Of a stretch of 62,637 bases of DNA, positions 22,147-51,210 are shown one piece after another. Location of the stretch: assembly GCA_023253325.1 (NCBI GenBank), contig JALRGY010000002.1, forward strand, positions 1-62,637, in the 5' to 3' direction. Under the pieces are notes generated by a model. The model made no database searches. It saw nothing but the letters and a program-made list of their open reading frames with translations, and was not told where the DNA came from. Source of the stretch: Candidatus Nanopelagicales bacterium (GTDB lineage Bacteria; Actinomycetota; Actinomycetes; S36-B12). The translations under genes and the position numbers were made by a program. Within the stretch, counting starts at the first letter, position 1; each line of letters opens with the position of its first letter.

Positions 22147-22403
22147 TGAACCAACCACTAAAAGTGTCAATTGGGAGGCCTCCTTGCCGCTCAGCGCATA
22201 GAGTGAAACCAGCAAGTTTCACGCGCACCGCAAGGAGGTCTTCCGTGGCATTGAATGGGGCTGGAGATGCGCAAGTCGCCGAACCCAACCAGATTTTCAA
22301 CCTGACAAGTAATCGCGCGTCCGTCCTCCGCGATGAAGTCGCGGCACGAACTACACCACACGAAGTCTTGACCAAAGAATCATCCCTGGAAGGAAAAGTG
22401 GGC

Positions 22404-24413: not shown

Positions 24414-24464
24414 ACGTTTCGAAGTTTCCCAATCAATAAAACTCGGACCCGCTAATCTGTCCAA

Positions 24465-25364
24465 GTGAGCGACAGGCTAAGCGTGACCACTCCGAGGGAT
24501 GATGCCCTTTCCGGGCGCAATGAGGTCCTGCTTCAACGGATTGCGCGCCCACAGTCGCTGATCTTTACCATTTATGGCGCCTATAGCCGCTCCCTCGGTG
24601 GATGGATGTCCGTCGGTGCATTGCTTGAATTGTTGCGGGAAATCGGAGTCGAGGACCCAGCAGTAAGAAGCGCCCTGTCCCGCTTTAAACGTCGAGGTGT
24701 GCTGATCTCCGAATCTCGAGATGGCTCAGCAGGCTATGCACTGAGTGAAAGCGCACGGCGCACTTTCGACATTGGTGACGCACGCGTCTTGGAGCGACGG
24801 GAGCCTCCTTCGAGCGACCGATGGGTTCTCATTGCCTTTTCCATTCCAGAAAAATCGCGGGATCTGAGATACCGTCTGCGATCACGGTTATCCCGAGTCG
24901 GCTTTGCACAGGTGACTGGCGGGCTTTGGATCGCACCCGAGGGGCTTGAAGTAGATGCTCGGCTGGTGATCGAATCCCTAGGTGTCAGCGAACATGTTGA
25001 TGTATTTCGCAGTGAACACGTTGCTTTCCGCAGCATGCCTGACGCGGTCGGTGAGTGGTGGGACCTCCAATCCATCGCAAATGAGTATCAGGATTTTTCT
25101 TCAACTTTTGCTGACCTCACAGAGGACTATAAATCTGGAAAAATAGAGATGACGCCCCTGCAGGCATTCATTGATTACACGCGTGTGCTCACCGCGTGGC
25201 GACCCCTGCCCTATCGAGATCCAGGGCTTCCTGCCGCGCATCTACCAATGGACTGGCCTGGAATCCAAGCCACTCAAATGTTTTTCAACTTTTACGACAT
25301 ACTCGGTGGCTTGGCGCAACAACATGTGATCGATGTTTGTTCAGCGCGAAATAGGCAGTCTTAA
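24465..25364 (+). CDS. PaaX-family transcriptional regulator
   Basis: N-terminal winged-helix region (RPQSLIFTIYGAY...VRSALSRFKRRGVL) and a C-terminal PaaX_C-like region (TAWRPLPYRDPGLP). GTG start. Confidence 0.7.
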   Translation: MSDRLSVTTPRDDALSGRNEVLLQRIARPQSLIFTIYGAYSRSLGGWMSVGALLELLREIGVEDPAVRSALSRFKRRGVLISESRDGSAGYALSESARRTFDIGDARVLERREPPSSDRWVLIAFSIPEKSRDLRYRLRSRLSRVGFAQVTGGLWIAPEGLEVDARLVIESLGVSEHVDVFRSEHVAFRSMPDAVGEWWDLQSIANEYQDFSSTFADLTEDYKSGKIEMTPLQAFIDYTRVLTAWRPLPYRDPGLPAAHLPMDWPGIQATQMFFNFYDILGGLAQQHVIDVCSARNRQS

Positions 25365-26911
25365 AAATCTGAAGTGGGCTGCCACTTCCCGTACACCTCG
25401 CGCAAAACGTTTGTGATCTCCCCTACCGTTGCATACTCTTTAACAGCGACCACAACCGCGGGAACGATATTAATTCCGGCTTGGGCCGCTAATAACAAAC
25501 TCTCGAGGGATTCAGTCACTTTATCCGTGTTTCTTTTTAACTTTATTTTCGCGAGGTCAGCGATTTGTCGTTGCTCGCTTTCCTTATCAATTTCAAAGAC
25601 CTCAAACCTCGCGGACTCTGACACAAAGGTATTAACACCAATAACTTTTTGATCACCTGAGTCAATGGCACGCGCAGTTTCGTAGGCGCTGTCTGAGAGT
25701 TTGGTGGCGAAATAGCCGGACTCGATGCAGGCAAGTGCTCCACCAAGTTCGGCGATCTTGTCCATCTCAGAAAAAATGGCGGCTTCGAGTTCGTCGGTCA
25801 GACTCTCGAGGAGTTCACTGCCGCCGAGAGGATCAACGAGTCCCGTGACACCTGTTTCAAAGGCAACAACCTGCTGTGTACGCAGGGCAAGCGTGGCAGC
25901 TGCTTCGGTGGGAACACCCAAGGCTTCATCGAACGCACAGACATGCATTGTTTGGCAACCACCCAATGCGGCGGCAAGTGCTTCAATTGAAGTGCGCACA
26001 ACGTTGTTCAGTGGTTGTTGGGCTGTCAAAGACGAGCCCGCAGTGAAGGCAAATATCCTCAGTTGCTCGGAGCGAGGATCTTGTGAGCCATAACTCTCAC
26101 GCATTAACTTTGCCCAGACTCGTCGAGCTGCGCGAAATTTTGCAACTTCAGGCATGAACTCCATATTGCTCGATAGAAACGTGAACAGCGTTGGTGCAAC
26201 GTCATCGACGGTCATACCGCGTTCGATGGCTGCGTCCATGTACGCCCGCGCGTTAGCAAAGGTGAAGGCAATTTCCTGAACGGCACTGGAACCTGACTCG
26301 CGAATGTGATAGCCGCTCATGGCGAGGGAGACCCATCGAGGAATTTTTGTGGCGACATGTTCAATAACATCGACTGACAGCTTCAGGCCCGCCGGAGCGG
26401 GGAAGATCTGAGTGCCGCGGGCAAAATACTCTTTAAGCACGTCATTTTGAATAAACATTCCGAATTTATTGGGATCCACTCCGCGCTTTTCAGCCAACGC
26501 TTCAAACATGGCCGCCCAGATGTAACCGATGGAGTTCGCAGTGGTTCGAACTTGGGTGATTTTCTCGAGTTCAATGCCATCCATCAAGATTTCAATGTCG
26601 GCCAAACTGTCAATGGCGACACCAACTTTGCCAACCTCCCCCGCCGCAAGAGGATTATCCGAGTCAAGTCCCATTTGTGTGGGGAGGTCAAGAGCGACAC
26701 TGAATCCCGTGAGACCTTGATCTAACAAAGAACGAAATCGAGCATTGGTTTCCTTGGCGGTTCCAAAGCCTGCATACTGCCCCATGGTCCACACTCCGGG
26801 ATCCGCACTAATTCCACGGGTGTAGGGGTAGGCGCCAGGAACCTCTTGGCTCTGTGAGTTACTCACTTTATTGACCCTTTCCACTTGTTTCTTCTGCGTT
26901 GAGTTCCTCAC
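25361..26911 (-). CDS. acyl-CoA mutase large (substrate-binding) subunit, methylmalonyl-/isobutyryl-CoA mutase family, without a B12-binding domain
   Basis: PGAYPYTRGI...QYAGFGTAKETNARFRSLLDQGLTGFSVALDLPTQMGLDSD is the hallmark N-terminal TIM-barrel signature. At 516 aa it ends before any DxHxxG cobalamin domain. Confidence 0.85.
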   Translation of the reverse strand: MRNSTQKKQVERVNKVSNSQSQEVPGAYPYTRGISADPGVWTMGQYAGFGTAKETNARFRSLLDQGLTGFSVALDLPTQMGLDSDNPLAAGEVGKVGVAIDSLADIEILMDGIELEKITQVRTTANSIGYIWAAMFEALAEKRGVDPNKFGMFIQNDVLKEYFARGTQIFPAPAGLKLSVDVIEHVATKIPRWVSLAMSGYHIRESGSSAVQEIAFTFANARAYMDAAIERGMTVDDVAPTLFTFLSSNMEFMPEVAKFRAARRVWAKLMRESYGSQDPRSEQLRIFAFTAGSSLTAQQPLNNVVRTSIEALAAALGGCQTMHVCAFDEALGVPTEAAATLALRTQQVVAFETGVTGLVDPLGGSELLESLTDELEAAIFSEMDKIAELGGALACIESGYFATKLSDSAYETARAIDSGDQKVIGVNTFVSESARFEVFEIDKESEQRQIADLAKIKLKRNTDKVTESLESLLLAAQAGINIVPAVVVAVKEYATVGEITNVLREVYGKWQPTSDF

Positions 26912-28430
26912 GCAAAACCTTTTTTGCGATTTTCCCCGTTGAGTTCAGCGGAAATTCGGTCACAATGCGAACATCTTTTGGTTTTTTATATGACGCTAGG
27001 TTCGCTTTGCAATGCTCAAGAATTGAATCGATACTCGTATCAGCCCCATCGCGCAGTGTCACAAGTGCGGTGACGTGCTGCCCCCAGTCCGAGTCATTTA
27101 CTCCGACGACAGCAACTTCGTGGACGCCGGGGACTTCAGCGATGGTGTCTTCGATTTCACGAGGGTAGATGTTGTAGCCACCTGAAATAATCATGTCACC
27201 TTTACGGTCTACCAAGAAAAGGTAGTCATCAGCATCAAGGCGGCCAAGATCACCGGTGTGAAGCCAGCCATCGCGCACCGCCTTGGTCACCGTGTTGTCT
27301 TGTCCAGCTTGACCGTAGTACCCGCGCATGACGTGATCGCCTCGAGTAATTACCTCACCGATTTCTCCTGAAGGTACGTCATTGCCTTGTTCATCGACAA
27401 TGCGTACTTCAACTCCATTACACGGATTGCCAGCGCTGGTGAGTAATTCGGGTTCACCAAAAATTCCGCGTCGGTGCTCTTCGGGTCCAAGTACAGTGAC
27501 CGGTGGAATGGCCTCAACTAACCCGTAATACTGACTCATGTTGACGGTAATTCGTTCATAACAATCCTTGATTTGTTCGGGCGGCATTGGTGCCCCCGCA
27601 TATCCCATGATTTCAAGATTCTTCATGCGCTCACGGGATATGTCCGGCATCGCGAGAAGTCGTGCCACCATGGTCGGGACAAGTGCCGTTCCATTCGCTC
27701 CACGGTTTTCAATGGCATCCACCAAGTCTTCGGGGTCGTACTTAGCTTGAACAATTTGCTTGGCACCGAATGTGAAATAAGGCAAGACAAACAAGCCTGT
27801 TGTATGTGTAACCGGTCCCGCGTGAACCCAAGTGCTGTTTTCATTGGGAACTTTGCCTAAAAAGTCTGTAACTATGTTGTGCAAACTCGCCATTCTGTTG
27901 CGGTGTGTGCGGATCGCCCCTTTGGGGTTGCCCGTTGTCCCACTTGAGTAGTTCAACGAGACCAACGCATCCGGGTCAACAGAAAGTAGCAGTGGTTCGG
28001 GAGACTGTGCCGCGAGAAAGCGTTCATATTCTGTGCTCTGGCCCGGATCTCCATTGATAACAATGACGTGATCCACCATCGATCGTATTTCGGCGGTCTG
28101 ATCCCAAAATTTAACATCAAGAATGAGTACCTTGGGCGTGCAGTCATTTGTGATTCTGACCCAGTCAGTTGGATGAAGACGGTAGTTGAGCGCCACGCGA
28201 CACAAGCCAGCTGTGCTGATGCCTAGGTCAGTTTCAATGTATGTGTTCTGATTGGACTGTAAATCCAAAACCCGATCGCCCGTCTCGAGTCCCAATGCAC
28301 GCAAGCCACGAGCAAGCTGCATTACTCGCGCTCCCGTTTGACCATAGGAGCTTTCACCCTCAGGACCAATAAGGGCAATGCGATCTCGGTACCTTTGCAT
28401 TGAGCGTGCAACGAGTCGACCAACATCCAT
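26868..28430 (-). CDS. AMP-forming acyl/aryl-CoA ligase (class I adenylate-forming enzyme)
   Basis: YSSGTTGNPKG (A3), GYGLVE-like, TGDLG, and IISGGYNIYPREIE motifs, with a C-terminal GKIAKK lysine. Confidence 0.85.
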   Translation of the reverse strand: MDVGRLVARSMQRYRDRIALIGPEGESSYGQTGARVMQLARGLRALGLETGDRVLDLQSNQNTYIETDLGISTAGLCRVALNYRLHPTDWVRITNDCTPKVLILDVKFWDQTAEIRSMVDHVIVINGDPGQSTEYERFLAAQSPEPLLLSVDPDALVSLNYSSGTTGNPKGAIRTHRNRMASLHNIVTDFLGKVPNENSTWVHAGPVTHTTGLFVLPYFTFGAKQIVQAKYDPEDLVDAIENRGANGTALVPTMVARLLAMPDISRERMKNLEIMGYAGAPMPPEQIKDCYERITVNMSQYYGLVEAIPPVTVLGPEEHRRGIFGEPELLTSAGNPCNGVEVRIVDEQGNDVPSGEIGEVITRGDHVMRGYYGQAGQDNTVTKAVRDGWLHTGDLGRLDADDYLFLVDRKGDMIISGGYNIYPREIEDTIAEVPGVHEVAVVGVNDSDWGQHVTALVTLRDGADTSIDSILEHCKANLASYKKPKDVRIVTEFPLNSTGKIAKKVLREELNAEETSGKGQ

Positions 28431-28458: not shown

Positions 28459-30510
28459 CTAGTCAGTGGGGGGTGAAACATACGCTGCATCGAGGACCCA
28501 ACAGCCGCGCTCAAGAACGGTCACCGGATTTATGTCTAATTCACAACCAGTTGGCCAATTTCTCACACCGTGCGCAAGGGTCTCAATAAATGTGACCAAA
28601 GCCTTGCGGTCTGATGGTTGGGTGCCTCGTGCACCTGCGAGTAATTGCTCAAGCGCGGTCTCAGAAATCATCTGCTCAATATCAACTCGATCTACAGGGA
28701 GCAGACGCACCGAAGCACTCGCCACAATCTCCGTCAAAACCCCGCCAACCCCCACCGTGAGCACCGGTCCCATGGAGCTCCCGCTGATTCCAACCAGGAC
28801 TTCAATTCCCCCGGGAACAAACCTTTCAACGAGCACATCACCACCCATGGCTTTCAGTGTGGTGAAGGTTTTCACGGCTTGATCAGTTGTTACATCAAGC
28901 ACCACTCCGCCTGCATCGGACTTGTGAAGCAGTCCTGGAACGATGGCCTTGAAAACTGCCCTGCCGCCAACGTTGTCAACGGCGTCGAGGACCTGTGCAG
29001 ACTCACTGACAAGAATTGATTCAGGGATGGGTAATCCTGAGGATGCGAGTAATTCCTTTAATTCCTTTTCCGATGCACCTGGTGAAGGGGTGGGAATCTC
29101 GGAAGGAGAGGCTACATCGAATGCACGATCAACTCTCGTGTTCACGGTGACGAGGGCGCGCAGGGCAGCCACAGCCCGTTCGGGGGTTGGATACACAGGG
29201 ACACCTGCTCTTTTGAGCACTTCAGCGCCCTCGGGCGCAAGTGCAGCCGCGCCCGTGCGAACCGCCGCCACGGGAAGACCAGTTCGTACCCGCACTTCAT
29301 GTAGGGCGGTCGCAATTCTGTCAACATCCTTGCCCACCAACACTGCAAAGCAAGCGACGATTGCATTCACCGCTGGATCGTCAGCCAACCGATCAACACA
29401 ACGTTCAAATAAGCCTGGTTCAGCCATCACCGCAGCAGTGACATCGACCGGGTTCGTAGCATTGCCATAACTGGGAACAATCTGTTCTAGGTCGGACACT
29501 GTGGATTGATCAAGATTGGCAAGGACCAAACCTTCTTTTTCGATTGCATCGACGGCGAGGATTCCACTTCCCCCGGATGTAGTGACGATGCCAACCCCTG
29601 AGCCACCGATGGCTCTCTCCGATGCAAACAGGGAAGCGACATCGAGCAACTCATCAATGTTGTCGACTCTAGCTATGCCATATTGTTTTAATCCTGCGCT
29701 CACCACTTTGTCTGGCGACGCCAACGCTCCAGTGTGCGAAGCCGCGGCCTCCGCTCCCGCCGCACTGCGCCCAGCTTTAAGGATTGCTATTGGTTTGGTT
29801 GCCGCAACCTGCGCTAATAAATCCAGATTTCCCAATGACTCAACGTACATAACAACAGCATCGACACCAGGGTCCTGCGCAAGTTGCACAGCAACTTCAG
29901 TAGCTGTGACATCTGCTTCGTTGCCGGTTGTGATGGCGATCCCAGTGGGGACACCACGTTCAAGACCAAGGGACAGTGCTCCAAAACCAAGGGCACCCGA
30001 TTGGCTCACTAACGCAATGCGTCCGTTAGGTAACGGGGTTGCTTCGGATGAAAAGACTGGGCTAAACGTTGCCATCACTTTATGGGCGCCGCCCACTGAC
30101 CCGATGCAGTTTGGCCCGACAATTCGCATTCCCTTGGTTCGGGCGATATCGACCAATTCCTGTTGTGCGGCAGCGCCTTTTTCATCAACCTCAGCGAAAC
30201 CTGAAGACATGACGATAGCCACATTCACACCAGCGTCCGCGCAATCCCGCACGGCATCTTTGACGTGTTGAGCTGGCACCATAATGAGGGCAAGGTCAAT
30301 ATGTTGTGGAACAGATGCCATGGAGGGGAATGCCTCCATACCGAAAATCTCTCCGCCCTTTGGGTTCACGGGCGCAATGAATCCATCAAAACCATGTTTG
30401 ATCAAGTACTCGAGCGGCAAGCGGCCCATTGCGCCGACGCGCTCCGTCGCCCCGATGACGGCGATGGATGTCGCCGCCCACAGGGGACGCAGATCAAGGT
30501 GTGATGTCAC
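28459..30510 (-). CDS. ADP-forming (NDP-forming) acyl-CoA synthetase, fused CoA-binding/ligase and ATP-grasp domains
   Basis: 683 aa. N-terminal IAVIGATER...VNPKGGEI (CoA_binding), SQSGALG and catalytic-His-region AASHTGALA, and a C-terminal ATP-grasp-like region. Confidence 0.8.
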   Translation of the reverse strand: MTSHLDLRPLWAATSIAVIGATERVGAMGRLPLEYLIKHGFDGFIAPVNPKGGEIFGMEAFPSMASVPQHIDLALIMVPAQHVKDAVRDCADAGVNVAIVMSSGFAEVDEKGAAAQQELVDIARTKGMRIVGPNCIGSVGGAHKVMATFSPVFSSEATPLPNGRIALVSQSGALGFGALSLGLERGVPTGIAITTGNEADVTATEVAVQLAQDPGVDAVVMYVESLGNLDLLAQVAATKPIAILKAGRSAAGAEAAASHTGALASPDKVVSAGLKQYGIARVDNIDELLDVASLFASERAIGGSGVGIVTTSGGSGILAVDAIEKEGLVLANLDQSTVSDLEQIVPSYGNATNPVDVTAAVMAEPGLFERCVDRLADDPAVNAIVACFAVLVGKDVDRIATALHEVRVRTGLPVAAVRTGAAALAPEGAEVLKRAGVPVYPTPERAVAALRALVTVNTRVDRAFDVASPSEIPTPSPGASEKELKELLASSGLPIPESILVSESAQVLDAVDNVGGRAVFKAIVPGLLHKSDAGGVVLDVTTDQAVKTFTTLKAMGGDVLVERFVPGGIEVLVGISGSSMGPVLTVGVGGVLTEIVASASVRLLPVDRVDIEQMISETALEQLLAGARGTQPSDRKALVTFIETLAHGVRNWPTGCELDINPVTVLERGCWVLDAAYVSPPTD

Positions 30511-30905
30511 GGGAGAATCGCTGTTCCTTCAATTTCGATCAGTGCGTCGTCATCCCACAGACGCGTGACGCCGACAAGTGTCATTGCGGGGTAATCCCGC
30601 CCAACAAGCCGTTTCCATACCGCTCCGATTTCGCTTGAGTGCGCGCGGTAATCAACAGGATCAACGCAATAGATCGTGAGTTTTGCTAGCTGTGACGGAT
30701 TTCCGCCAGCGGCTTCCAGTGCGGCCAATAAATTTTGCAAGCCTTTTTCCACTTGTTCGACAATTGTCGCCCCCACAATTACGTTGTTGGCGTTCAATGC
30801 TGTTTGTCCGGCGAGTAAGACAATCGTGGAACCTTCCGCGACCACTGCATGTGAAAACCCAATTGGTGGGGCAAGTGACTCTGGATTGATTCTCTTCACT
30901 GTCAT
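30507..30905 (-). CDS. RidA/YjgF-family enamine/imine deaminase
   Basis: 132 aa with a typical RidA fold sequence (GFSHAVV...LAGQTAL...TIYC...YPAMTLVGV..L...IEIEGTA). 4-nt overlaps with both neighbours. Confidence 0.8.
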   Translation of the reverse strand: MTVKRINPESLAPPIGFSHAVVAEGSTIVLLAGQTALNANNVIVGATIVEQVEKGLQNLLAALEAAGGNPSQLAKLTIYCVDPVDYRAHSSEIGAVWKRLVGRDYPAMTLVGVTRLWDDDALIEIEGTAILP

Positions 30906-31675
30906 GTCTGAACCTTTCCGCCATCAAGGGTGATCCCTTGTCCGTTTATTGCACCCTGTTCGTGGACAAGGAAATTAACTGTTGCTGCCACTTCTTCGGG
31001 TTCTATCAATTTTCCGTGCCCCTGTTCTTGTGCCAATGTGTCCAGCACTTCACTCCGATTCCTACCCGTCTTTTCAACAATAGAATCAACAGTACGTGCT
31101 GTCATGGGTGTATTCACATAGCCGGGACAGACAGCATTCACGGTTATTCCGTGTGACGACAATTCCGCAGCGGCGGACCGCACTAGACCCAGGACTCCAT
31201 GCTTTGCCGCGGTGTAGGCCGAGATGTAGGGGGCTCCGACGCGCGAGGCAACGCTTGCAATGACAACGATGCGGCCAAAACCTTGCTCTTTCATCGTGGG
31301 TATTGCCGCACGCATAAATCGGAATGGGGCATTGAGATTGAGTTCGATCATGCGCTCCCATAGTGCGTCATCAGTTCGCGTTATGGGTGCAGAGATCCCT
31401 TCGCCTGCGTTAATAACGAGAACATCGAGCCCATTCCATTCACTCACCACCTGCTGGACAATTTTGTCAGCGGCGGTGGGGTCCGTGACATCGCCTGGAA
31501 TGACCAAATGTGGCACTTTCAAGGTGCTAGCAACTGCAAGCAGGTCCGACTCAGTTCGAGCAGTCAGGGCAATTGGGTAGCCAGCGCTGGCCAAATCACC
31601 CACAATTGCTGCACCAATACCTCGACTGGCTCCAGTCACTAGGCAACGGAAAGGAGATTGCCTCGACGAATTCAT
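30902..31675 (-). CDS. SDR-family oxidoreductase (3-hydroxyacyl-CoA / 3-oxoacyl reductase-like)
   Basis: VTGASRGIG, NAG and YTAAKHGV (YxxxK) motifs. First gene of the minus-strand operon 31675 to 25361. Confidence 0.8.
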   Translation of the reverse strand: MNSSRQSPFRCLVTGASRGIGAAIVGDLASAGYPIALTARTESDLLAVASTLKVPHLVIPGDVTDPTAADKIVQQVVSEWNGLDVLVINAGEGISAPITRTDDALWERMIELNLNAPFRFMRAAIPTMKEQGFGRIVVIASVASRVGAPYISAYTAAKHGVLGLVRSAAAELSSHGITVNAVCPGYVNTPMTARTVDSIVEKTGRNRSEVLDTLAQEQGHGKLIEPEEVAATVNFLVHEQGAINGQGITLDGGKVQT

Positions 31676-31735
31676 CGGACTTCCCTTTCTGAGCTAAATA
31701 TTGGGACCCAAAGACCACATGAATAGTGCACTTCT

Positions 31736-31759
31736 CTGTCGATCGGCAATAATACGACA
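31736..31759. promoter_or_regulatory. 23-bp pseudo-palindromic candidate operator, site A (TGTCGATCGGCAATAATACGACA), in the divergent SDR/thiolase promoter
   Basis: Read directly. It ends 1-2 nt before the thiolase ATG, and its AATAAT/ATTATT core can act as a -10 in both directions. It matches site C at 20 of 23 positions by eye. Coordinates are +/-1 nt: my hand indexing in this line disagrees by 1 with the ORF track. Confidence 0.5.
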
Positions 31760-31760
31760 C

Positions 31761-32936
31761 ATGAGCCCTACCCGTCCTGTAGTTGCCGCAGCAAAGCGGA
31801 CAATGTTTGGTAAAAATCGAGGTGCGCTCTCAGGGATTCGCCCAGACGACCTTTTGGCGCTGAGTCTGCGAGAGCTTGCCGCGTCGATTCCTGGCCTAGA
31901 TCTTTCTCGAGTCGATGACATAGTGATGGGCGATGCCAATGGCGCCGGCGAGGACAACCGCAATGTGGCCCGCATGGGCGCCCTCCTAGCCGACTTCCCC
32001 GTCACTATTCCCGGCGTGACCCTGAACAGGCTCTGCGGTTCGGGAGGCGAGGCGATTGTGCAAGCATCGAGGGCGGTGCTCTCGGGTGACATGGACATCG
32101 TTATCGCTGGTGGAGTGGAAAGCATGAGCCGCGCGCCGTTCGTTCTGCCCAAGTCCGATAAGCCACTTGATGCATCGATGAAACTGGAACAAACCACGGT
32201 CGGTTGGCGAATGATCAACCCTGCATTCCCCAAACATTGGACAGACTCCCTTGGCGAGTGCGCACAACGCAGTGCCCAGGAACTGGGCATCGGGAGACAA
32301 GAACAGGATGAATGGTCAGTGCGGTCACATGAATTGGCTTCTGCTGCCTGGGACCGAGGCGTGCACGACGGGTTTGCATTCTCCGTTAACGACTTGACCC
32401 GCGATGAATCAATTAGACCCACCACGACGCTCGAAACGCTCGGTGCATTGAAACCCGCCTTTACCGCCGACGGCACTGTCACCGCTGGCAATTCATCACC
32501 CATCAACGACGGTTCCGTAGCAGCGCTCATCACGCGAGAAGAGATCGCGAGAGATCTCAATCTTGACTCATTTGCATCGATTGTTTCATCAGCAGTTGTC
32601 GCGGTTGAACCCGACAGATTCGCCAACGCCCCTGTCCCTGCAATGCATAAGTTATTGCAGCGCAACAACTTAACCTTCGGTGATATTGATTTATTCGAAA
32701 TCAATGAAGCTTTCGCTGCGATGGTTCTCACCGTTCTCCGGGAAGAACCACGCATTGACGTGTCAAAAGTAAATCCCAATGGTGGTGCGATAGCAATGGG
32801 GCATCCGGTTGGTGCCTCCGCTGCTCGAGTCGTTGTTGACGCTGCTCGCAATCTTCATGCGCGTGGTGGTGGTCGTGCAATTGCGACTGCTTGTATTGGT
32901 GTTGGTCTCGGTATCGCAATTCTCTTGGAGGCATGA
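31761..32936 (+). CDS. acetyl-CoA C-acyltransferase (thiolase II-like)
   Basis: VVAAAKRTMFGK N-terminus, NRLCGSG active-site Cys, GGVESMS, and the C-terminal NPNGGAIAMGHP..GASG..ACIGVGLG signature. The internal ATG at 31761 gives the canonical N-terminus. Confidence 0.9.
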   Translation: MSPTRPVVAAAKRTMFGKNRGALSGIRPDDLLALSLRELAASIPGLDLSRVDDIVMGDANGAGEDNRNVARMGALLADFPVTIPGVTLNRLCGSGGEAIVQASRAVLSGDMDIVIAGGVESMSRAPFVLPKSDKPLDASMKLEQTTVGWRMINPAFPKHWTDSLGECAQRSAQELGIGRQEQDEWSVRSHELASAAWDRGVHDGFAFSVNDLTRDESIRPTTTLETLGALKPAFTADGTVTAGNSSPINDGSVAALITREEIARDLNLDSFASIVSSAVVAVEPDRFANAPVPAMHKLLQRNNLTFGDIDLFEINEAFAAMVLTVLREEPRIDVSKVNPNGGAIAMGHPVGASAARVVVDAARNLHARGGGRAIATACIGVGLGIAILLEA

Positions 32937-33733
32937 TGATAAAAATTTCAGAGTTCACCGACATAACCTATGAACTCATCGACCAGGTTGCCGTTATCAC
33001 GATCAACCGACCGGATCGTTACAACGCCCTTCGCGGTCGCACCGTTGATGAATTGATTTATGCATTCCGATACGCCTACGTTGATAAAGGTGTTGCCGCA
33101 GTCGTGCTCACAGGAGCTGGGCCCAAGGCTTTTTGCTCCGGTGGTGATCAGAAAGAACGTAATGAGACAGGCGGTTACGGTGAGACTGAAATGGGAATTT
33201 TTGAAATCGAGCGACTTCACCGTCTGATCCGAGAAATTCCCAAGCCCGTCATTGCGGCCGTTAATGGTTTTGCAATCGGTGGTGGGCACGTCCTGCATGT
33301 GCTCTGCGACGTTTCCCTAGCATCAACCACAGCAAAGTTTGGTCAAGTGGGCCCACGAGTTGGGAGTTTCGACGCCGGGTTTGGAACCGCCTATCTGGCC
33401 CGCGTGGTGGGTGAGAAACGTGCTCGCGAGATCTGGTTTTTCTGCGATCAATACGACGCGGAAACGGCAGAACGCTGGGGCTTGGTCAATCGGGTGGTAG
33501 AACCGAATGAACTGATGCCCCTTGCCCTGGAGTGGGGCCGCAAAGTTGCCGCGCTTTCTCCGACCGCGCTCAAGACCCTCAAACACAGCTTTAATGCTGA
33601 CACGGACCACATTGTCGGCATCCAGTCTTTGGCGTTTGATGTACTCGACCTATTCGTCGATACAGATGAAGCAAAAGAGGGCGGTCAGGCGTTTGTTGAG
33701 AAACGCAAACCCGACTTCTCACCGTTTCGCTGA
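32933..33733 (+). CDS. MenB/BadI-subfamily crotonase (1,4-dihydroxy-2-naphthoyl-CoA synthase-like / 2-ketocyclohexanecarboxyl-CoA hydrolase-like)
   Basis: ITINRPDRYNA, LTGAGPKAFCSGGDQK, GFAIGGGHVLHVLCD, FGQVGPRVGSFDAGFG, and the C-terminal FVEKRKPDFS closely follow the MenB pattern. GGAGG precedes an ATGATG that overlaps the thiolase stop. There are no men genes nearby. Confidence 0.85.
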   Translation: MMIKISEFTDITYELIDQVAVITINRPDRYNALRGRTVDELIYAFRYAYVDKGVAAVVLTGAGPKAFCSGGDQKERNETGGYGETEMGIFEIERLHRLIREIPKPVIAAVNGFAIGGGHVLHVLCDVSLASTTAKFGQVGPRVGSFDAGFGTAYLARVVGEKRAREIWFFCDQYDAETAERWGLVNRVVEPNELMPLALEWGRKVAALSPTALKTLKHSFNADTDHIVGIQSLAFDVLDLFVDTDEAKEGGQAFVEKRKPDFSPFR

Positions 33734-35306: not shown

Positions 35307-35451
35307 GTGATGTTCTCCCTAATCTTCCAAAAAACTGACGACCGCCATCATTGCGCTATACGCTCGTGCGTGCAACCATGGTGGCGAAAAATGTTCCGCA
35401 CGATTTGTCGGAAGTCGCGGTCGCAGGAGACGTCGGAGGAAGGGAGCGCTC

Positions 35452-37017: not shown

Positions 37018-37187
37018 CGCCGCCACTAGTACATGCTGTCCTTGTGACGGTCGTCAAAATAGTGTGATCTTGCCCGAAAGTATGTGACAAATCTGCTGTT
37101 GTGCCGACCAGTAATCTCCCCCATGCTTGTGCATGGGATTACGTCGGTGCACATGTACCGCGGCCAGTTAATGAAGGGATCATCGTA

Positions 37188-43064: not shown

Positions 43065-45422
43065 TTATTGCCCTGGCCGCCAGCGTTTTGGCCTATCCGT
43101 GAGTTTTTCTGGCGCTCGCAATTCAAGGCGCGGTTTTGGATCTTCATTGCGTCCCGCAGGGGGCTTACGGCTCCCAGCCGCGTATTGATTCGGCCACGGA
43201 ACTCGATATTCCTGTTCTGTTGCTGCATGCAGGGTCCAAGCTGGGTCATAAAGATGCGGCCGGCCAAGAGCACAGAGATCCGCCCTTCCCGCAGCGATAA
43301 TCGTGTTGACATCGTCCCAACTGCTGATTGAACCAACAGCCATCGTGGCAACTCCGATTACGTTTCGGATTCGATCTGCAAATGGAGTTTGATACGAACG
43401 GCCGTAAGCAGGCTTAGCCTTTGGGGTCGTTTGGCCCGTTGAAACATCGACAATATCTACTCCGTGCTCAGCAAATACTCGAGCCATTTCCACCGATTCC
43501 TCGACGGATAGGCCATCGGGGACCCAATCCGAGGCGGAGATGCGCACACTAATTGGCTTACCCGCAGGCCACACGGCGCGAATGGCATCAAATACTTCGA
43601 GTGGGAAACGCATTCGGTTTTCCAGGCTGCCGCCATATTCATCGGTCCGTTGATTACTCACTGGAGTCAAGAAACTCGACATGAGATAACCGTGGGCGCA
43701 GTGGTATTCCAGCAGATCAAATCCTGCTGCATCAGCATTTTGAGCGCCCGTGACAAATTCTTCAAGGACCGCGTCCATGTCGGCTCGCGTCATTTCCCGC
43801 GGTACTTGGCTGTTTTCCAAATACGGAATGGGCGAAGGAGCAATGATCTCCCAATTGCCATCGGGAAGTGGCTGATCGATGCCCTCCCACATTAATTTTG
43901 TGGAACCCTTGCGACCTGAGTGACCTAATTGCAAACCAATTTTAGACTCAGTCGTGTGCACGAAATCAACAATTTTTTTCCATGCGGTGACTTGTTCGTG
44001 ATTCCAAATTCCACCGCATCCCGGAGTGATCCTGCCCTGCGGTGAAGTGCACACCATCTCTGTCATGACCAGGCCGGCACCTCCCAATGCCCGCGAGCCT
44101 AAATGCACCATGTGGAAATCACCAGGTATGCCGTCCACGGAACAGTACATATCCATGGGGGAGACAACAACACGGTTGGGCAGTTCCAAGTCGCGCAATT
44201 TGAACGGCAGGAACATCGGGGGGCGTGGTGTGGTTCCAGCCGGAACACGACCACTCGCTATTTGATCACGCAAAAGCCACGAATCAACTTCTCGAACAAA
44301 CGCTGGGTCTCGTTCGAGGAGATTGTCATAGGTGATTCGTCTGCTGCGTGTCATCAGATTGAAAGCAAACTGAACGGGCTCTTGAGCAGCGTATTGATTA
44401 ATCTCCTCAAACCATTCCATGCTTGCTTGGGCGGATCGCTGAGTGCTCTTCACCACAGGAAGACGTTCTTCGTCATACGCCTTCAGTGCACTCTCAATTG
44501 TCGGTTGCTCCTGCAAACATGCAGCTAAACTAAGAGCATCTTCCATGGCGAGTTTTGTGCCCGAACCGATGCTGAAGTGTGCCGTGTGTGCTGAATCTCC
44601 AAGAAGTACAAGGTTGTCTTTTACCAATGTGCGGTTTCGAATCGTTCGGAAGGTTACCCATTTACTATTGTTCACGATCAATTCGTGACCATCGAGTACA
44701 TCGGCAAAAAGTTCAGCTACTTTCTCAACACTCTTCATGTCACTGACACCGGGCGGCAATTCCTCTGACTCAAATTGATCAAACCCAGCGTTGCGCCACA
44801 CGTCCTCATGCATTTCAATGATGAATGTGCTGCCTTTGTCATCCATGGGATAGGCGTGAATCTGCATGACTCCGTGAGGAGTATTGCGGATGAAAAATTC
44901 GAATGCTTCAAAAACGAGATCCGTGCCCAGCCACATGAACTTGCATTGACGTGGATCGATCGTTGTTCCAAAGTCAGATTCAAAGGTTGAACGGATCCCG
45001 CTGTTGATACCGTCACTTGCCAACACAAGATCGTAGTTCGCCATGAGTTCTTCAACAGGAGGTGCTTCGGAATTGAAGTGAATGGGAACGCCATGAGCTG
45101 TGGCCCTCCGTTGCAGCACATGGAGCAACTCCTTGCGGCTCATTGCCGCGAAACCATTGCCGCCAATGGTGAACTGAGATCCATCAATGTCTACATCTAC
45201 GTCATCCCAATAGGCGAATGAGCGGCCCATGTCCTCAAAGACAGACTGGTCCGATGCCTTGATCCCACTCAATGTTTGGTCAGAAAAAACAACACCGAAA
45301 CCAAAAGTGTCATCGGGGGCATTTCGCTCCCAAACAGTGATGTCGGCATGTGGATCAATTTGTTTGATGAGGGAAGAGAAGTACAAACCTCCTGGGCCTG
45401 CGCCAACTACTGCGATTTTCAC
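43065..45422 (-). CDS. bifunctional FAD-dependent aryl-CoA monooxygenase / Old-Yellow-Enzyme-type reductase (2-aminobenzoyl-CoA monooxygenase-reductase or salicylyl-CoA 5-hydroxylase-like)
   Basis: The N-terminal half has IAVVGAGPGG, GDSAHTAHFSIGSGT (the DG/GD motifs of group A flavin monooxygenases). The C-terminal half is an OYE TIM barrel (VVSPMDMY, GLQLGHSGRKG, LEYHCAHGYL). The GTG at 45422 with an upstream GGGAAG is preferred over the track start at 45458. Confidence 0.8.
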   Translation of the reverse strand: MKIAVVGAGPGGLYFSSLIKQIDPHADITVWERNAPDDTFGFGVVFSDQTLSGIKASDQSVFEDMGRSFAYWDDVDVDIDGSQFTIGGNGFAAMSRKELLHVLQRRATAHGVPIHFNSEAPPVEELMANYDLVLASDGINSGIRSTFESDFGTTIDPRQCKFMWLGTDLVFEAFEFFIRNTPHGVMQIHAYPMDDKGSTFIIEMHEDVWRNAGFDQFESEELPPGVSDMKSVEKVAELFADVLDGHELIVNNSKWVTFRTIRNRTLVKDNLVLLGDSAHTAHFSIGSGTKLAMEDALSLAACLQEQPTIESALKAYDEERLPVVKSTQRSAQASMEWFEEINQYAAQEPVQFAFNLMTRSRRITYDNLLERDPAFVREVDSWLLRDQIASGRVPAGTTPRPPMFLPFKLRDLELPNRVVVSPMDMYCSVDGIPGDFHMVHLGSRALGGAGLVMTEMVCTSPQGRITPGCGGIWNHEQVTAWKKIVDFVHTTESKIGLQLGHSGRKGSTKLMWEGIDQPLPDGNWEIIAPSPIPYLENSQVPREMTRADMDAVLEEFVTGAQNADAAGFDLLEYHCAHGYLMSSFLTPVSNQRTDEYGGSLENRMRFPLEVFDAIRAVWPAGKPISVRISASDWVPDGLSVEESVEMARVFAEHGVDIVDVSTGQTTPKAKPAYGRSYQTPFADRIRNVIGVATMAVGSISSWDDVNTIIAAGRADLCALGRPHLYDPAWTLHAATEQEYRVPWPNQYAAGSRKPPAGRNEDPKPRLELRAPEKLTDRPKRWRPGQ

Positions 45423-45474
45423 CGGATGAACTTCCCTTCTGAATTTCCCGACACCCACACCTCTTGCGTCTTTT

Positions 45475-45497
45475 TGACTATCGCCAATAGTACGGTA
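45475..45497. promoter_or_regulatory. candidate operator site B (TGACTATCGCCAATAGTACGGTA) in the divergent monooxygenase/SDR promoter
   Basis: 17 of 23 positions match site A by eye. The central CAATAGTA (TACTAT on the minus strand) is -10-like. Confidence 0.4.
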
Positions 45498-45549: not shown

Positions 45550-46359
45550 ATGCCCCCTATGTCAGAAAACCCCAGTCTCGAGACCGCACCACAACGATTT
45601 GCTGGCAAGGTCGCGGTCATCACGGGTGGGGCAGGTGGTCTAGGCCTGGCAATAGCTGAAGCCTTCTGCCACGAGGGCGGGCGCGTAGCCCTCTTTGACG
45701 CGAACCCCGAAGCCGTCACAGCCGGGACTCAAAGTCTTGAGAAACTGGGTTTTTCAGCAAGTGGCGAGTGTGTCGACGTTCGAGATTCACACCAGGTACA
45801 GGCGGCGATGGCTCGAGTGGCCGAGCGCTTTGGTCGAATAGATTCACTCATTGCGGCGGCCGGTGGAAGTTTGGGAACACCTCGCGACTTGGAAGATATT
45901 TCCCCCGAAGACCTAGACCTCGTTATTGACGTCAACATCAAGGGCACTTACCACTGCAGTGCTGCCGTAGTTCCCTACATGCGCTCCCAGGGTGGCGGGT
46001 CAATCGTCACCTTTAGTTCCATCGGAGGCCGGAGCACGAGTCCCGTTACAGGTATTCCCTATGCCGCTGCAAAAGCTGGCATTCTTGGTTTAACCCGACG
46101 ATTGGCGCGCGAAGTCGGGCCCGAAAATATTCGCGTTAATGCCATTGCACCTGGATTATTTCTCACCGGCAGATTACAAGGCATGTTTGATGCGATGAGC
46201 GAAAAAGATCGGAATGAAGTACTCGATTCCATTCCGTTGCACCGCATGCCGAACATTGACGAATGTGTTGAGCCTGTCCTATTTCTGGCAAGCGATGCTT
46301 CGTCTTACATCACGGGGGTTGTGCTCGACGTCAACGGTGGAAGGTTTATGGCCGGTTAA
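45550..46359 (+). CDS. SDR-family oxidoreductase
   Basis: ITGGAGGLG and YAAAKAGI (YxxxK) motifs. The alternative ATG at 45559 has better Shine-Dalgarno spacing. Confidence 0.8.
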   Translation: MPPMSENPSLETAPQRFAGKVAVITGGAGGLGLAIAEAFCHEGGRVALFDANPEAVTAGTQSLEKLGFSASGECVDVRDSHQVQAAMARVAERFGRIDSLIAAAGGSLGTPRDLEDISPEDLDLVIDVNIKGTYHCSAAVVPYMRSQGGGSIVTFSSIGGRSTSPVTGIPYAAAKAGILGLTRRLAREVGPENIRVNAIAPGLFLTGRLQGMFDAMSEKDRNEVLDSIPLHRMPNIDECVEPVLFLASDASSYITGVVLDVNGGRFMAG

Positions 46360-51187: not shown

Positions 51188-51210
51188 TGTCGTACGTCAA
51201 TAATACGACA
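51188..51210. promoter_or_regulatory. candidate operator site C (TGTCGTACGTCAATAATACGACA) upstream of the ABC importer operon
   Basis: Perfect 7-bp inverted arms TGTCGTA/TACGACA around CGTCAATAA. TATTAT on the minus strand is -10-like, about 50-70 nt upstream of the binding-protein start. Confidence 0.5.

What the first reader, a model, noticed from the sequence alone, without database searches (positions are those of the whole stretch)
30507..33733. RidA + MenB/BadI-like crotonase + SDR + thiolase around one promoter: plausible missing lower steps of the 2-aminobenzoyl-CoA pathway
**Seen in sequence.** RidA and an SDR are translationally coupled in the minus-strand operon. A thiolase and a MenB/BadI-type crotonase are coupled on the plus strand. 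Both units share the site-A promoter. The crotonase has the full MenB-like motif set but no men neighbours.

**Established knowledge.** RidA proteins hydrolyse enamine/imine intermediates, releasing ammonia. BadI, a MenB homologue, opens 2-ketocyclohexanecarboxyl-CoA hydrolytically.

**Inference.** The ACMR product is an enamine (2-amino-5-oxocyclohex-1-ene-1-carbonyl-CoA). RidA could deaminate it to a 2-oxo-cyclohexane-carboxyl-CoA, the BadI-like enzyme could cleave the ring, and the SDR and thiolase could finish by beta-oxidation. I believe these downstream steps are still poorly defined experimentally, so this gene set is a concrete candidate.
Basis: inference. Interest (0 to 1): 0.6.

Follow-up and report, generated by a model that had tools for sequence, protein, structure and literature searches.

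The report
Candidate anthraniloyl-CoA ring-opening gene module
Four tightly packed genes of a freshwater actinobacterium (a RidA-like protein, a reductase, a thiolase and a MenB/BadI-like ring-opening enzyme) are conserved with, and share operator-like sites with, the enzyme that de-aromatises anthraniloyl-CoA. That makes them good but unproven candidates for the undescribed later steps of this tryptophan-breakdown route.

Summary
The genes and their couplings are real. SDR and RidA overlap by ATGA, thiolase and crotonase overlap by ATGA, and the two units diverge from an 85-bp gap.

- The minus-strand operon runs on into an ADP-forming acyl-CoA synthetase, an AMP ligase and a B12-type mutase large subunit.
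- The crotonase does not carry the full MenB motif set: Tyr258 is Val and the aromatic-ring patch is altered.
- The RidA lacks the canonical Arg.

A genuine men cluster with its own MenB lies on another contig, so the main refuter fails. The crotonase falls outside both the MenB and the BadI clades. In cultured bacteria its relatives sit beside SDR, acyl-CoA dehydrogenase, ligase and, in one record, 3-oxoadipyl-CoA thiolase genes, as BadI does.

Within this Nanopelagicales family the module lies 0.8-9 kb from the anthraniloyl-CoA monooxygenase/reductase (ACMR) in four arrangements. A conserved operator-like motif is shared with the ACMR promoter.

Best reading (about 0.5): these are post-ACMR steps of deamination, hydrolytic ring opening and thiolysis. 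Rivals are an upstream feeder route or an unrelated co-located pathway. No biochemistry exists for any step, and the mutase and both ligases remain unexplained.

The parts
24465..25364 (+). PaaX-family regulator, the probable repressor of the island
   Evidence: PaaX, PaaX_M and PaaX_C domains. It is 38-40% identical to the two PaaX-type regulators of the pAL1 anthranilate cluster. It is conserved at this position in relatives.
25361..26911 (-). Acyl-CoA mutase large subunit without a B12 domain; last gene of the minus-strand operon
   Evidence: PF01642 at 569.8 bits. The MCM-type substrate residues Tyr89, Arg207, Tyr243 and His244 are kept; the nearest structure is HcmA 4r3u. Free B12-binding small subunits lie on C148 and C146.
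26868..28430 (-). AMP-forming acyl-CoA ligase
   Evidence: AMP-binding domains. The nearest structures are FadD8 and feruloyl-CoA synthetase types. It is only 28% identical to the pAL1 anthranilate-CoA ligase.
28459..30510 (-). ADP-forming (NDP-forming) acyl-CoA synthetase, fused alpha/beta
   Evidence: CoA_binding, Succ_CoA_lig and ATP-grasp_5 domains. Its GTG start overlaps the RidA stop.
30507..30905 (-). Rid-family protein lacking the canonical Arg (motif YPAMT)
   Evidence: PF01042 at 69.6 bits, but TIGR00004 at 46.9 bits against a cutoff of 106. It is 42-49% identical to the RidAs of three actinobacterial ACMR clusters and 32% to the Ralstonia one. All five have Met at Arg105.
30902..31675 (-). 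SDR1, a 3-hydroxybutyrate-dehydrogenase-like short-chain dehydrogenase; first gene of the operon
   Evidence: adh_short at 191 bits. It is 41.6% identical to the SDR directly downstream of ACMR in Ralstonia. It is absent from the minimal cluster variant.
31737..31759 (.). Operator-like site A in the divergent intergenic region
   Evidence: TGTCGATCGGCAATAATACGACA. The 13-mer core CGNCAATANTACG occurs only at 31744, 45482 and 51195 in the window (0.03 expected). It is conserved upstream of the thiolase in the related loci. Its left half fits TGWCGNNCGNCA.
31761..32936 (+). Thiolase of the beta-ketoadipyl-CoA (PcaF) type
   Evidence: TIGR01930 at 387.6 bits, above the 240.55 cutoff; pcaF at 409 bits, below the 597 cutoff. 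The nearest structures are the 7vtr thiolase and the 6pca beta-ketoadipyl-CoA thiolase.
32933..33733 (+). Crotonase of a third, uncharacterised group in the MenB/BadI family; candidate retro-Dieckmann ring hydrolase
   Evidence: menB models score 316 and 342 bits and badI scores 304 bits, all below their cutoffs.
35336..35347 (.). Operator-like 12-mer between the two divergent CrtI-like genes
   Evidence: TGACGACCGCCA matches TGWCGNNCGNCA.
37045..37056 (.). Palindromic operator-like 12-mer upstream of iorA
   Evidence: TGACGGTCGTCA. The same 12-mer occurs in a pAL1 promoter region at L007 17663.
43065..45458 (-). ACMR-type fusion of a flavin monooxygenase and an Old Yellow Enzyme reductase
   Evidence: NF006101 at 1179 bits, above the 1078 cutoff. 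It is 61% identical to the pAL1 enzyme.
45482..45494 (.). Operator-like site B between ACMR and SDR2
   Evidence: CGCCAATAGTACG. A second conserved copy of the motif lies about 6.4-6.5 kb downstream of the crotonase gene in six relatives that carry ACMR and SDR2 there.
45550..46359 (+). SDR2, divergent from ACMR and kept in all cluster variants
   Evidence: adh_short_C2 at 195 bits. It is present beside ACMR in relatives, including the minimal variant.
51188..51210 (.). Operator-like site C upstream of the ABC importer
   Evidence: TGTCGTACGTCAATAATACGACA. It shares all 20 specified positions of the 23-nt pattern with site A.

Best explanation
The four genes are the centre of a conserved seven-gene 'core'. 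It reads SDR1-RidA-ADP-forming acyl-CoA synthetase-AMP ligase-mutase on one strand, divergent from thiolase-crotonase on the other. The core belongs to a PaaX-controlled tryptophan/anthranilate catabolic island of a Candidatus Nanopelagicales bacterium.

**Most likely function: the core processes the ACMR product.**
1. ACMR makes 2-amino-5-oxocyclohex-1-ene-1-carbonyl-CoA (established for the Azoarcus enzyme).
2. The Arg-less Rid protein helps hydrolyse the enamine/imine to 2,5-dioxocyclohexane-1-carbonyl-CoA plus ammonia (inferred).
3. The MenB/BadI-family crotonase keeps the oxyanion hole and the Ser161/Asp163 pair but lacks MenB's substrate clamp. It opens the ring by a BadI-type retro-Dieckmann hydrolysis to a C7 oxo-dicarboxyl-CoA (inferred from family chemistry and from the contexts of its relatives).
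4. An SDR and the beta-ketoadipyl-type thiolase finish the chain (inferred).

**Shown here:** gene order, couplings, conserved linkage to ACMR, shared operator-like motifs, non-MenB status and the active-site residue pattern.

**Not shown:** any activity, the order of steps, and the roles of the mutase and the two ligases.
For: 1. **Linkage to ACMR.**
   - 19 of the roughly 37 related Nanopelagicales-type loci reach an ACMR gene.
   - By my reading of the locus lengths, the others stop within 10 kb downstream of the crotonase; none runs past about 12 kb without ACMR.
   - All five metagenome loci also carry ACMR.
   - Four arrangements exist. In the minimal one the crotonase lies directly beside ACMR.
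   - In the family sample, 11 of 12 genomes with the crotonase have ACMR. In nine of them both genes lie on one contig, 0.8-9 kb apart.
2. **Shared regulation.**
   - The 13-mer CGNCAATANTACG occurs only at the core, ACMR/SDR2 and ABC-importer promoters.
   - It is conserved at the homologous place in the related loci.
   - Related 12-mers mark two more island promoters. They resemble sites in pAL1 anthranilate-cluster promoters.
3. **Not MenB.**
   - A true men cluster is elsewhere in the genome.
   - Tyr258 is lost and the aromatic patch is changed (residue roles from PMC3637252).
   - The crotonase's group is present in genomes without menD.
4. **BadI-like context.** Relatives at 60-65% identity lie next to SDR, acyl-CoA dehydrogenase, ligase or thioesterase genes. 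In Azoarcus KH32C a 3-oxoadipyl-CoA thiolase is also present. This matches the genuine badI clusters.
5. **Counterparts in a proteobacterial ACMR cluster.** RidA and SDR homologues lie in the Ralstonia abm-type cluster. An Arg-less RidA accompanies ACMR in four other lineages.
6. **Intermediate seen in vivo.** A C7H8O4-CoA ester was detected only in anthranilate-grown Arthrobacter (PMC3534580).
7. **No alternative route.** The window's genome and its four ACMR-bearing congeners have no gentisate-like bicupin.
Against:
- Members of the crotonase's group at 60-68% identity are never near ACMR. The link is therefore restricted to one lineage.
- Four ACMR genomes of the same family lack the core and carry bicupin, FAH and an Amdase-like gene (RidA in one) at ACMR.
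- Seven genomes carry both modules, so the two are not simple alternatives.
- G310 has crotonase, RidA, ligase and mutase but no detectable ACMR, at 92% completeness.
- The RidA lacks the Arg needed for the known imine-deaminase activity.
- The AMP ligase is not of the benzoate/anthranilate-CoA ligase type. It recurs directly beside the mutase elsewhere, which suggests an acid-activation plus rearrangement step that the scheme does not explain.
- SDR1 is missing from the minimal variant.
Confidence: 0.5

Rival explanations
1. Upstream feeder route. The ligase, crotonase, SDR and thiolase (with the mutase) shorten the side chain of an indole- or kynurenine-derived acid as a CoA ester. They deliver anthraniloyl-CoA, or isatin/anthranilate, to ACMR. 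This would resemble the iad auxin pathway or the anaerobic indoleacetate pathway with its B12 mutase.
For: - The iad pathway uses an AMP-forming ligase (IadF), a thiolase (IadG), a dehydrogenase (IadH) and a cyclase-fold amidase (IadI) to reach anthranilate (bioRxiv 10.1101/2025.10.25.684584).
- The island holds a cyclase-fold hydrolase, IorAB and two CrtI-like flavoproteins. These are also linked to ACMR in Tsukamurella.
- The mutase keeps the carboxylate-binding Tyr89 and Arg207, as expected for a substituted succinyl-CoA.
- The ligase-mutase pair recurs in G267 and G310.
Against: - The minimal cluster variant keeps the core and ACMR but has no cyclase, IorAB or CrtI-like genes.
- Another variant pairs the core with tryptophan 2,3-dioxygenase and a kynureninase-like gene. 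Those give free anthranilate without any side-chain shortening.
- The thiolase is of the dicarboxyl (beta-ketoadipyl) type.
- The crotonase belongs to a family of C-C cleaving or forming Dieckmann enzymes, and its relatives sit in alicyclic contexts.
- This route gives no role to a Rid protein.
Confidence: 0.2
2. Independent pathway merely co-located in an aromatic/alicyclic catabolic island. The core degrades another acid, for example an alicyclic or substituted dicarboxylic acid activated by the ligase and rearranged by the mutase. ACMR products would be handled elsewhere.
For: - The crotonase's group occurs widely without ACMR.
- G310 and G267 carry parts of the core without ACMR.
- Some ACMR genomes lack the core.
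- The island is accessory and patchy within the genus.
Against: - The operator-like motif is shared only by the core, ACMR/SDR2 and importer promoters, and it is conserved in relatives.
- Adjacency to ACMR is kept through four rearrangements.
- The window's genome has no other candidate genes for the ACMR product.
Confidence: 0.15
3. The crotonase is the cell's DHNA-CoA synthase (MenB) for menaquinone synthesis.
For: Best NCBIfam hits are the menB models at 342 and 316 bits. Sources name close homologues 'naphthoate synthase'.
Against: - Both scores are below the cutoffs.
- A genuine MenB at 430 bits lies in a men cluster on C145.
- Tyr258 is replaced.
- Relatives occur in genomes that lack menD.
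Confidence: 0.01

Closest known systems
bad/ali cyclohexanecarboxylate pathway: BadH (SDR), BadI (2-ketocyclohexanecarboxyl-CoA hydrolase), AliA/AliB and a PcaF-type thiolase, as annotated in Salipiger abyssi and Cupriavidus basilensis plasmids
   Same: An SDR, a MenB/BadI-family crotonase and a beta-ketoadipyl-type thiolase are clustered. The oxyanion-hole glycines and Ser161/Asp163 are shared. The expected substrate class is a 2-oxocyclohexane-1-carbonyl-CoA.
   Different: The window crotonase is 55% identical to these BadIs. It scores 304 bits against a cutoff of 467.6, falls outside the BadI clade and lacks the Tyr258 equivalent that both BadIs keep. The cluster has no AliB-type dehydrogenase or BadK hydratase. 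It adds a Rid protein, a mutase and an ADP-forming synthetase.
abm (aerobic 2-aminobenzoate) cluster of Azoarcus evansii (Schuhle et al. 2001, recalled from memory; paper not held), seen here in its Ralstonia solanacearum counterpart
   Same: ACMR occurs together with a RidA-family protein and a 3-hydroxybutyrate-dehydrogenase-like SDR (41.6% identical to SDR1). The downstream steps are equally unresolved.
   Different: Ralstonia has a crotonase of family NF006107 (not MenB-like), an acyl-CoA dehydrogenase, a benzoate-type 2-aminobenzoate-CoA ligase, a 4HBT thioesterase and a MarR regulator. It has no thiolase, mutase or ADP-forming synthetase.
Anthranilate cluster of Arthrobacter sp. Rue61a plasmid pAL1, also found in Rhodococcus BG43 and Tsukamurella
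   Same: PaaX-type regulators, ACMR at 61% identity, an Arg-less RidA at 42-49% identity, and TGACGNNCGTCA-like promoter sites.
   Different: There the partners are an FAH-family hydrolase, a small cupin, an acyl-CoA thioesterase and a different ligase. There is no crotonase, thiolase or mutase.
[quoted passage not shown]
   Same: Same fold and 50-55% identity. Gly86, Gly133, Ser161 and Asp163 are kept.
   Different: Tyr258 is Val and Leu106/Val108/Leu109 are Phe/Ile/Glu. There is no men context, and a true MenB lies elsewhere in the genome.
iad auxin-degradation pathway of Variovorax
   Same: A CoA ligase, a thiolase, a dehydrogenase and a cyclase-fold amidase act on the way to anthranilate.
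   Different: iad acts upstream of anthranilate and uses a Rieske oxygenase. No MenB-like crotonase, RidA, mutase or ACMR is described in the passages read.

Membership tests
MenB (DHNA-CoA synthase) | Score above the NCBIfam equivalog cutoffs (NF005637 at 380; TIGR01929 at 342.7) | tested here: not met
   342.1 and 316.5 bits. The genome's true MenB scores 430.5 and 385.2 bits.
MenB (DHNA-CoA synthase) | Tyr258, which clamps the ortho-carboxyl group of OSB (PMC3637252) | tested here: not met
   Val in the window. It is V, T, L, E or G throughout the crotonase's group and Tyr in all five MenBs aligned.
MenB (DHNA-CoA synthase) | Tyr97 of the A-loop | tested here: inconclusive
   A Tyr lies one position off in the multiple alignment (TGGYGE). 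The pairwise phmmer alignment puts it on Tyr97.
MenB (DHNA-CoA synthase) | Hydrophobic patch Leu106/Val108/Leu109 that contacts the aromatic ring | tested here: not met
   Phe/Ile/Glu in the window.
MenB (DHNA-CoA synthase) | Oxyanion hole Gly86/Gly133 and catalytic Ser161/Asp163 | tested here: met
   All four are conserved.
MenB (DHNA-CoA synthase) | men gene context, and distribution that follows menD | tested here: not met
   There are no men genes in the window. The men cluster is on C145. Seven genomes have a member of this group but no menD.
BadI (2-ketocyclohexanecarboxyl-CoA hydrolase) | Score above the TIGR03210 cutoff (467.6) | tested here: not met
   304 bits in the window and 271-353 bits in its group.
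BadI (2-ketocyclohexanecarboxyl-CoA hydrolase) | Placement in the BadI clade and retention of the Tyr258 equivalent | tested here: not met
   Two PGAP-named BadIs group as sister to the MenBs and keep the Tyr. The window's group lies outside both clades (FastTree, 24 sequences, supports not examined).
BadI (2-ketocyclohexanecarboxyl-CoA hydrolase) | Clustering with a BadH-type SDR and beta-oxidation genes | tested here: met
   SDR1 and a PcaF-type thiolase are adjacent in the window. Relatives lie next to SDR, acyl-CoA dehydrogenase, ligase or thioesterase genes, with a 3-oxoadipyl-CoA thiolase in Azoarcus KH32C.
BadI (2-ketocyclohexanecarboxyl-CoA hydrolase) | Hydrolytic ring opening of a 2-oxocyclohexane-1-carbonyl-CoA | not testable with these tools
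   Needs an enzyme assay.
RidA (Rid family imine/enamine deaminase) | YjgF/L-PSP fold (PF01042) | tested here: met
   69.6 bits against a cutoff of 27.3.
RidA (Rid family imine/enamine deaminase) | Canonical RidA subfamily score (TIGR00004 cutoff 106.25) | tested here: not met
   46.9 bits.
RidA (Rid family imine/enamine deaminase) | Arg105, which binds the carboxylate of 2-imino acids (role taken from established knowledge) | tested here: not met
   Met in the window (YPAMT), as in the ACMR-linked RidAs of pAL1, Rhodococcus, Tsukamurella and Ralstonia.
abm-type aerobic 2-aminobenzoyl-CoA cluster | ACMR fusion enzyme present | tested here: met
   NF006101 at 1179 bits against a cutoff of 1078. 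The gene starts 9.3 kb downstream of the crotonase.
abm-type aerobic 2-aminobenzoyl-CoA cluster | Same downstream gene set (NF006107 crotonase, acyl-CoA dehydrogenase, benzoate-type ligase) | tested here: not met
   Only the RidA and SDR have counterparts.
Methylmalonyl-CoA-type B12 mutase | Substrate residues Tyr89, Arg207, Tyr243 and His244 | tested here: met
   The motifs QYAGF, FARGT and GYH are present.
Methylmalonyl-CoA-type B12 mutase | B12-binding domain or subunit encoded with the large subunit | tested here: not met
   None in the window. Small subunits lie on C148 (next to sucC) and C146. In minimal-variant relatives a small subunit lies beside PaaX.

The most novel reading that the evidence does not exclude
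The core encodes a complete, non-oxygenolytic lower pathway for aerobic anthranilate breakdown that uses a new B12 mutase reaction.
1. After Rid-assisted deamination, the crotonase opens the ring hydrolytically to give 4-oxopimeloyl-CoA.
2. The mutase shifts the thioester carbon. This is the succinyl-CoA to methylmalonyl-CoA reaction with a ketone in place of the carboxylate, and it gives 2-methyl-3-oxoadipyl-CoA.
3. The beta-ketoadipyl-type thiolase splits that into succinyl-CoA and propionyl-CoA.
4. The ADP-forming synthetase recovers ATP.
Probability: 0.12. Interest if true: 0.85.

Novelty: new variant of a known kind. Interest (0 to 1): 0.6.

Why it matters
The aerobic 2-aminobenzoyl-CoA route has been known since about 1990, but only its first two enzymes are defined. 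None of the papers found here describes what happens to the de-aromatised product.

This module is a compact, testable gene set for those steps. It comes from an abundant lineage of freshwater and estuarine bacteria with small genomes.

It also flags three enzyme groups without a characterised member:
- a third branch of the MenB/BadI family, which PGAP and other sources often label 'naphthoate synthase';
- a Rid subfamily without the canonical Arg that travels with ACMR in at least five lineages;
- a rare paralogue of the acyl-CoA mutases.

If the reading is confirmed, it would close a gap in tryptophan and anthranilate catabolism and correct a common MenB mis-annotation.

Tried and rejected
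- **MenB function:** rejected.
- **BadI equivalog:** rejected on score, tree position and Tyr258.
- **'Either/or' lower modules:**
  - I tested whether the core and the gentisate-like set (bicupin, FAH, Amdase-like) are mutually exclusive partners of ACMR.
  - They are not. Seven genomes carry both, four carry only the gentisate-like set, and the own genus carries only the core.
- **ACMR next to a MenB-like gene in G174:**
  - This looked like an independent case.
  - It is a true MenB (474 bits) followed by a UbiA-family (MenA-type) prenyltransferase gene, so I treat the adjacency as coincidental.
- **IOR fusions near distant relatives:** the large neighbouring ORFs turned out to be SMC, a FlgD-Ig protein and a GGDEF/EAL protein.
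- **Sigma-70 promoter in the divergent gap:** none found.
- **Literature:**
  - Schuhle 2001, Li 2011 and the MeqR2 paper are not held.
  - Searches for RidA together with 2-aminobenzoyl-CoA, and for newer ACMR work, found nothing on downstream steps.
  - One search failed on term syntax and was not repeated.
- **Not run:** structure prediction, the large representative-protein search and the RNA-family tools. I did not expect them to separate the upstream from the downstream reading.

Full report
**What is there**

The stretch 30507-33733 holds four real genes:
- a Rid-family protein, 30507-30905 (-);
- a short-chain dehydrogenase, SDR1, 30902-31675 (-);
- a thiolase, ORF from 31701 with a likely ATG start at 31761, ending at 32936 (+);
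- a MenB/BadI-like crotonase, ORF from 32891 with a likely ATG start at 32933, ending at 33733 (+).

Reading the DNA confirms the couplings. The SDR1 stop and the RidA start overlap as ATGA. The thiolase TGA overlaps the crotonase ATG. The two units diverge from an 85-bp gap.

The RidA stop overlaps the GTG start of a 683-aa ADP-forming acyl-CoA synthetase. An AMP-forming ligase and a 516-aa acyl-CoA mutase large subunit follow, and their frames overlap. The unit is therefore a five-gene operon divergent from a two-gene operon.

**The wider island**

The rest of the island runs from a PaaX-type regulator at 24465 to an aminotransferase-V gene at 52978. Beyond the core it holds two CrtI-like flavoproteins, IorA/IorB, an MFS transporter and a cyclase-fold hydrolase. 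It also holds the ACMR-type fusion (43065-45458; NF006101 at 1179 bits against a cutoff of 1078), a second SDR, an ABC importer and a 4HBT thioesterase. ACMR starts 9.3 kb downstream of the crotonase.

**Is the crotonase MenB?**

No. The window's genome is a 1.95-Mb Candidatus Nanopelagicales MAG; the name comes from near-identical loci. It has a second, better match on contig C145. That match sits in a menF-like/menD/menC/menB/menE/menA cluster and passes the equivalog cutoff at 430 bits against 380.

The window protein is below every cutoff: menB 342 and 316 bits, badI 304 bits.

Residue roles in E. coli MenB come from PMC3637252. Compared with them:
- The window protein keeps the oxyanion hole (Gly86, Gly133) and the Ser161/Asp163 pair.
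- Tyr258, which clamps the substrate's ortho-carboxyl group, is Val.
- The aromatic-ring patch Leu106/Val108/Leu109 is Phe/Ile/Glu.
- Tyr97 is ambiguous.

In a 400-genome sample of the phylum, the nearest relatives outside the family form a discrete band at 63-67% identity. True MenBs follow at 56% or less. Seven of the twelve genomes in that band have no menD at all. The ones with menD have a separate MenB next to it.

With two PGAP-named BadIs added, MenBs and BadIs each form a clade. The window's group lies outside both, and it alone lacks the Tyr258 equivalent (a small FastTree whose supports I did not examine).

**What do relatives of the crotonase do?**

- In Mycobacterium dioxanotrophicus, Rhodococcus ruber and Azoarcus sp. 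KH32C plasmids, members at 60-65% identity lie directly beside an SDR or an acyl-CoA dehydrogenase.
- CoA ligases, CoA-transferases or thioesterases lie nearby. In Azoarcus there are also ETF genes and a 3-oxoadipyl-CoA thiolase.
- Genuine badI clusters look the same: SDR-badI-aliB-aliA...pcaF in Salipiger, and ligase-SDR-badI-hydratase...dehydrogenase in Cupriavidus.

The trio in the finding (SDR, MenB/BadI-type crotonase, beta-ketoadipyl-type thiolase) is therefore the recognised layout for opening a 2-oxocyclohexane-1-carbonyl-CoA ring and degrading the resulting dicarboxyl-CoA.

**Link to ACMR**

- Across roughly 37 related Nanopelagicales-type loci (crotonase at least 85% identical), the order mutase-ligase-synthetase-RidA-(SDR1) <> thiolase-crotonase is fixed. 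Nineteen of these loci reach an ACMR gene.
- By my reading of the locus lengths, the others end within 10 kb downstream of the crotonase, before ACMR would be expected. The five metagenome loci carry it too.
- There are four arrangements. What lies between the crotonase and ACMR is:
  - CrtI-like genes, IorAB and the cyclase;
  - CrtI-like genes and the cyclase;
  - tryptophan 2,3-dioxygenase, a cupin, a kynureninase-like gene and an ABC transporter;
  - nothing.
- The last, minimal variant is PaaX, mutase, ligase, synthetase, RidA, thiolase, crotonase, ACMR and SDR2. It has no SDR1.
- In a 200-genome sample of the order, 12 genomes of the window's family have the crotonase and 11 of them have ACMR. 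In nine of these both genes lie on one contig, 0.8-9 kb apart.

**Shared operator-like sites**

- The 13-mer CGNCAATANTACG occurs three times in 62.6 kb. The sites are the core's divergent gap, the ACMR/SDR2 gap and the region upstream of the ABC importer (0.03 expected). The pattern was derived from these sites, so that statistic is partly circular.
- The independent evidence is conservation. The motif sits at the homologous place upstream of the thiolase in the related loci. In six relatives that carry ACMR and SDR2 downstream, a second copy lies about 6.4-6.5 kb beyond the crotonase gene.
- The left half of the site fits TGWCGNNCGNCA. That 12-mer also marks the CrtI/CrtI gap and the region upstream of iorA (9 matches against 1.7 expected).
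- The related TGACGNNCGTCA lies in three promoter regions of the pAL1 anthranilate cluster. I recall that motif as the operator of MeqR2, an anthraniloyl-CoA-responsive PaaX-type repressor. The paper is not held, so this is memory plus the pAL1 scan.

**The Rid protein**

It is 42-49% identical to the RidAs encoded in the ACMR clusters of Arthrobacter pAL1, Rhodococcus BG43 and Tsukamurella, and 32% to the one in Ralstonia. All five have Met where RidA has Arg105.

A Rid subfamily therefore travels with ACMR across two phyla. It lacks the residue that binds the carboxylate of 2-imino acids (the residue's role is from established knowledge). That fits a substrate without a free alpha-carboxylate, such as a CoA thioester. 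It also means the 'established' RidA activity cannot simply be transferred to this protein.

In the pAL1-type clusters the partners are an FAH hydrolase, a small cupin and a thioesterase. The Rid protein may act there on a different enamine.

**Evidence that complicates the reading**

1. Four ACMR genomes of the same family have no core. They carry a bicupin, an FAH hydrolase and an Amdase-like gene beside ACMR, with a RidA in one case.
2. Seven genomes carry both modules. The own genus carries only the core.
3. G310 has crotonase, RidA, ligase and mutase but no ACMR at 92% completeness.
4. Close relatives of the mutase are rare. In G267 and G310 they sit directly after a homologous AMP ligase. 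That suggests ligase and mutase act on one carbon skeleton.
5. The mutase keeps the MCM-type Tyr89, Arg207, Tyr243 and His244, which points to a substrate with a nearby carboxylate.
6. The iad auxin pathway reaches anthranilate with an AMP ligase, a thiolase, a dehydrogenase and a cyclase-fold amidase. An upstream role for some core genes therefore cannot be excluded.

Against that upstream role: the minimal and TDO/kynureninase variants have no cyclase or IorAB. The thiolase is of the dicarboxyl type. The crotonase's relatives sit in alicyclic contexts.

**The mutase partner**

- The window has no B12-binding subunit. The genome has two free ones, C148 (next to sucC) and C146. It also has two further large subunits, on C2 and C221.
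- In minimal-variant relatives the sucC/B12-subunit pair lies directly beside PaaX.
- A working two-subunit mutase is therefore plausible.

**Verdict**

- **Best reading (about 0.5).**
  - The module handles the ACMR product: Rid-assisted deamination, retro-Dieckmann ring hydrolysis by a new branch of the MenB/BadI family, then SDR and thiolase steps.
  - The detection of a C7H8O4-CoA ester in anthranilate-grown Arthrobacter (PMC3534580) shows that the deaminated intermediate plausibly exists in vivo.
- **Rivals.** An upstream feeder route (0.2) and an unrelated co-located pathway (0.15).
- **Most novel reading not excluded.** The mutase turns the ring-opened 4-oxopimeloyl-CoA into a thiolase-cleavable 2-methyl-3-oxoadipyl-CoA (about 0.12).

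All chemistry beyond gene content is inference. Other agents in this scan reached similar views on homologous clusters, but that is not independent evidence.

Noticed in passing
window 33762-43019; L016 (Tsukamurella plasmid) 15747-24930: The set of cyclase-fold hydrolase, IorA/IorB and two CrtI-like flavoproteins is linked to an ACMR-type gene in Tsukamurella tyrosinosolvens as well as in this island. I did not test that idea.
   Followed up: partly
L081-L084 (G424, G434, G492, G572); bicupin also in G504:C5:44776-45885 and G544:C13:36886-37971: A gentisate-like module (bicupin dioxygenase, FAH hydrolase, Amdase-like gene, a RidA in one genome) flanks ACMR in Nanopelagicales genomes that lack the core. 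It co-occurs with the core in seven others. It may handle 5-hydroxyanthraniloyl-CoA, the other ACMR product.
   Followed up: partly
G000 contig C148:17901-19527; L042 518-2190: A B12-binding small subunit sits next to sucC, about 320 bp from the end of contig C148. In minimal-variant relatives the same pair lies directly beside the island's PaaX gene.
   Followed up: partly
L017, L019, L020 (family f18 genomes): In seven genomes without menD, the single member of this crotonase group is the only MenB-like gene. In the two loci I annotated (L017, L019) it lies between ffh, ftsY and smc, with no metabolic neighbours. In at least two of these genomes it scores just above the TIGR01929 menB cutoff, so it is probably annotated as MenB there.
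   Followed up: partly
L042 11128-11544: A PIN-domain gene is inserted between the crotonase and ACMR in one minimal-variant locus.
   Followed up: no
window 21046-24413: A luciferase-like monooxygenase, an AraC regulator and two NADPH-dependent FMN reductases lie directly upstream of the PaaX gene. A luciferase-like gene also follows PaaX in L082.
   Followed up: no
window 6509-8203: A carbon-nitrogen hydrolase and a protein with a mycothiol maleylpyruvate isomerase N-terminal domain lie about 17 kb upstream of the island. Tsukamurella has a nitrilase-related gene inside its ACMR cluster.
   Followed up: no
L015 (Ralstonia solanacearum megaplasmid) 12001-20257: An abm-type cluster in a plant pathogen reads ACMR-SDR-MarR-crotonase (NF006107)-acyl-CoA dehydrogenase-2-aminobenzoate-CoA ligase-4HBT thioesterase-RidA. 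It is flanked by IS5 transposases.
   Followed up: no
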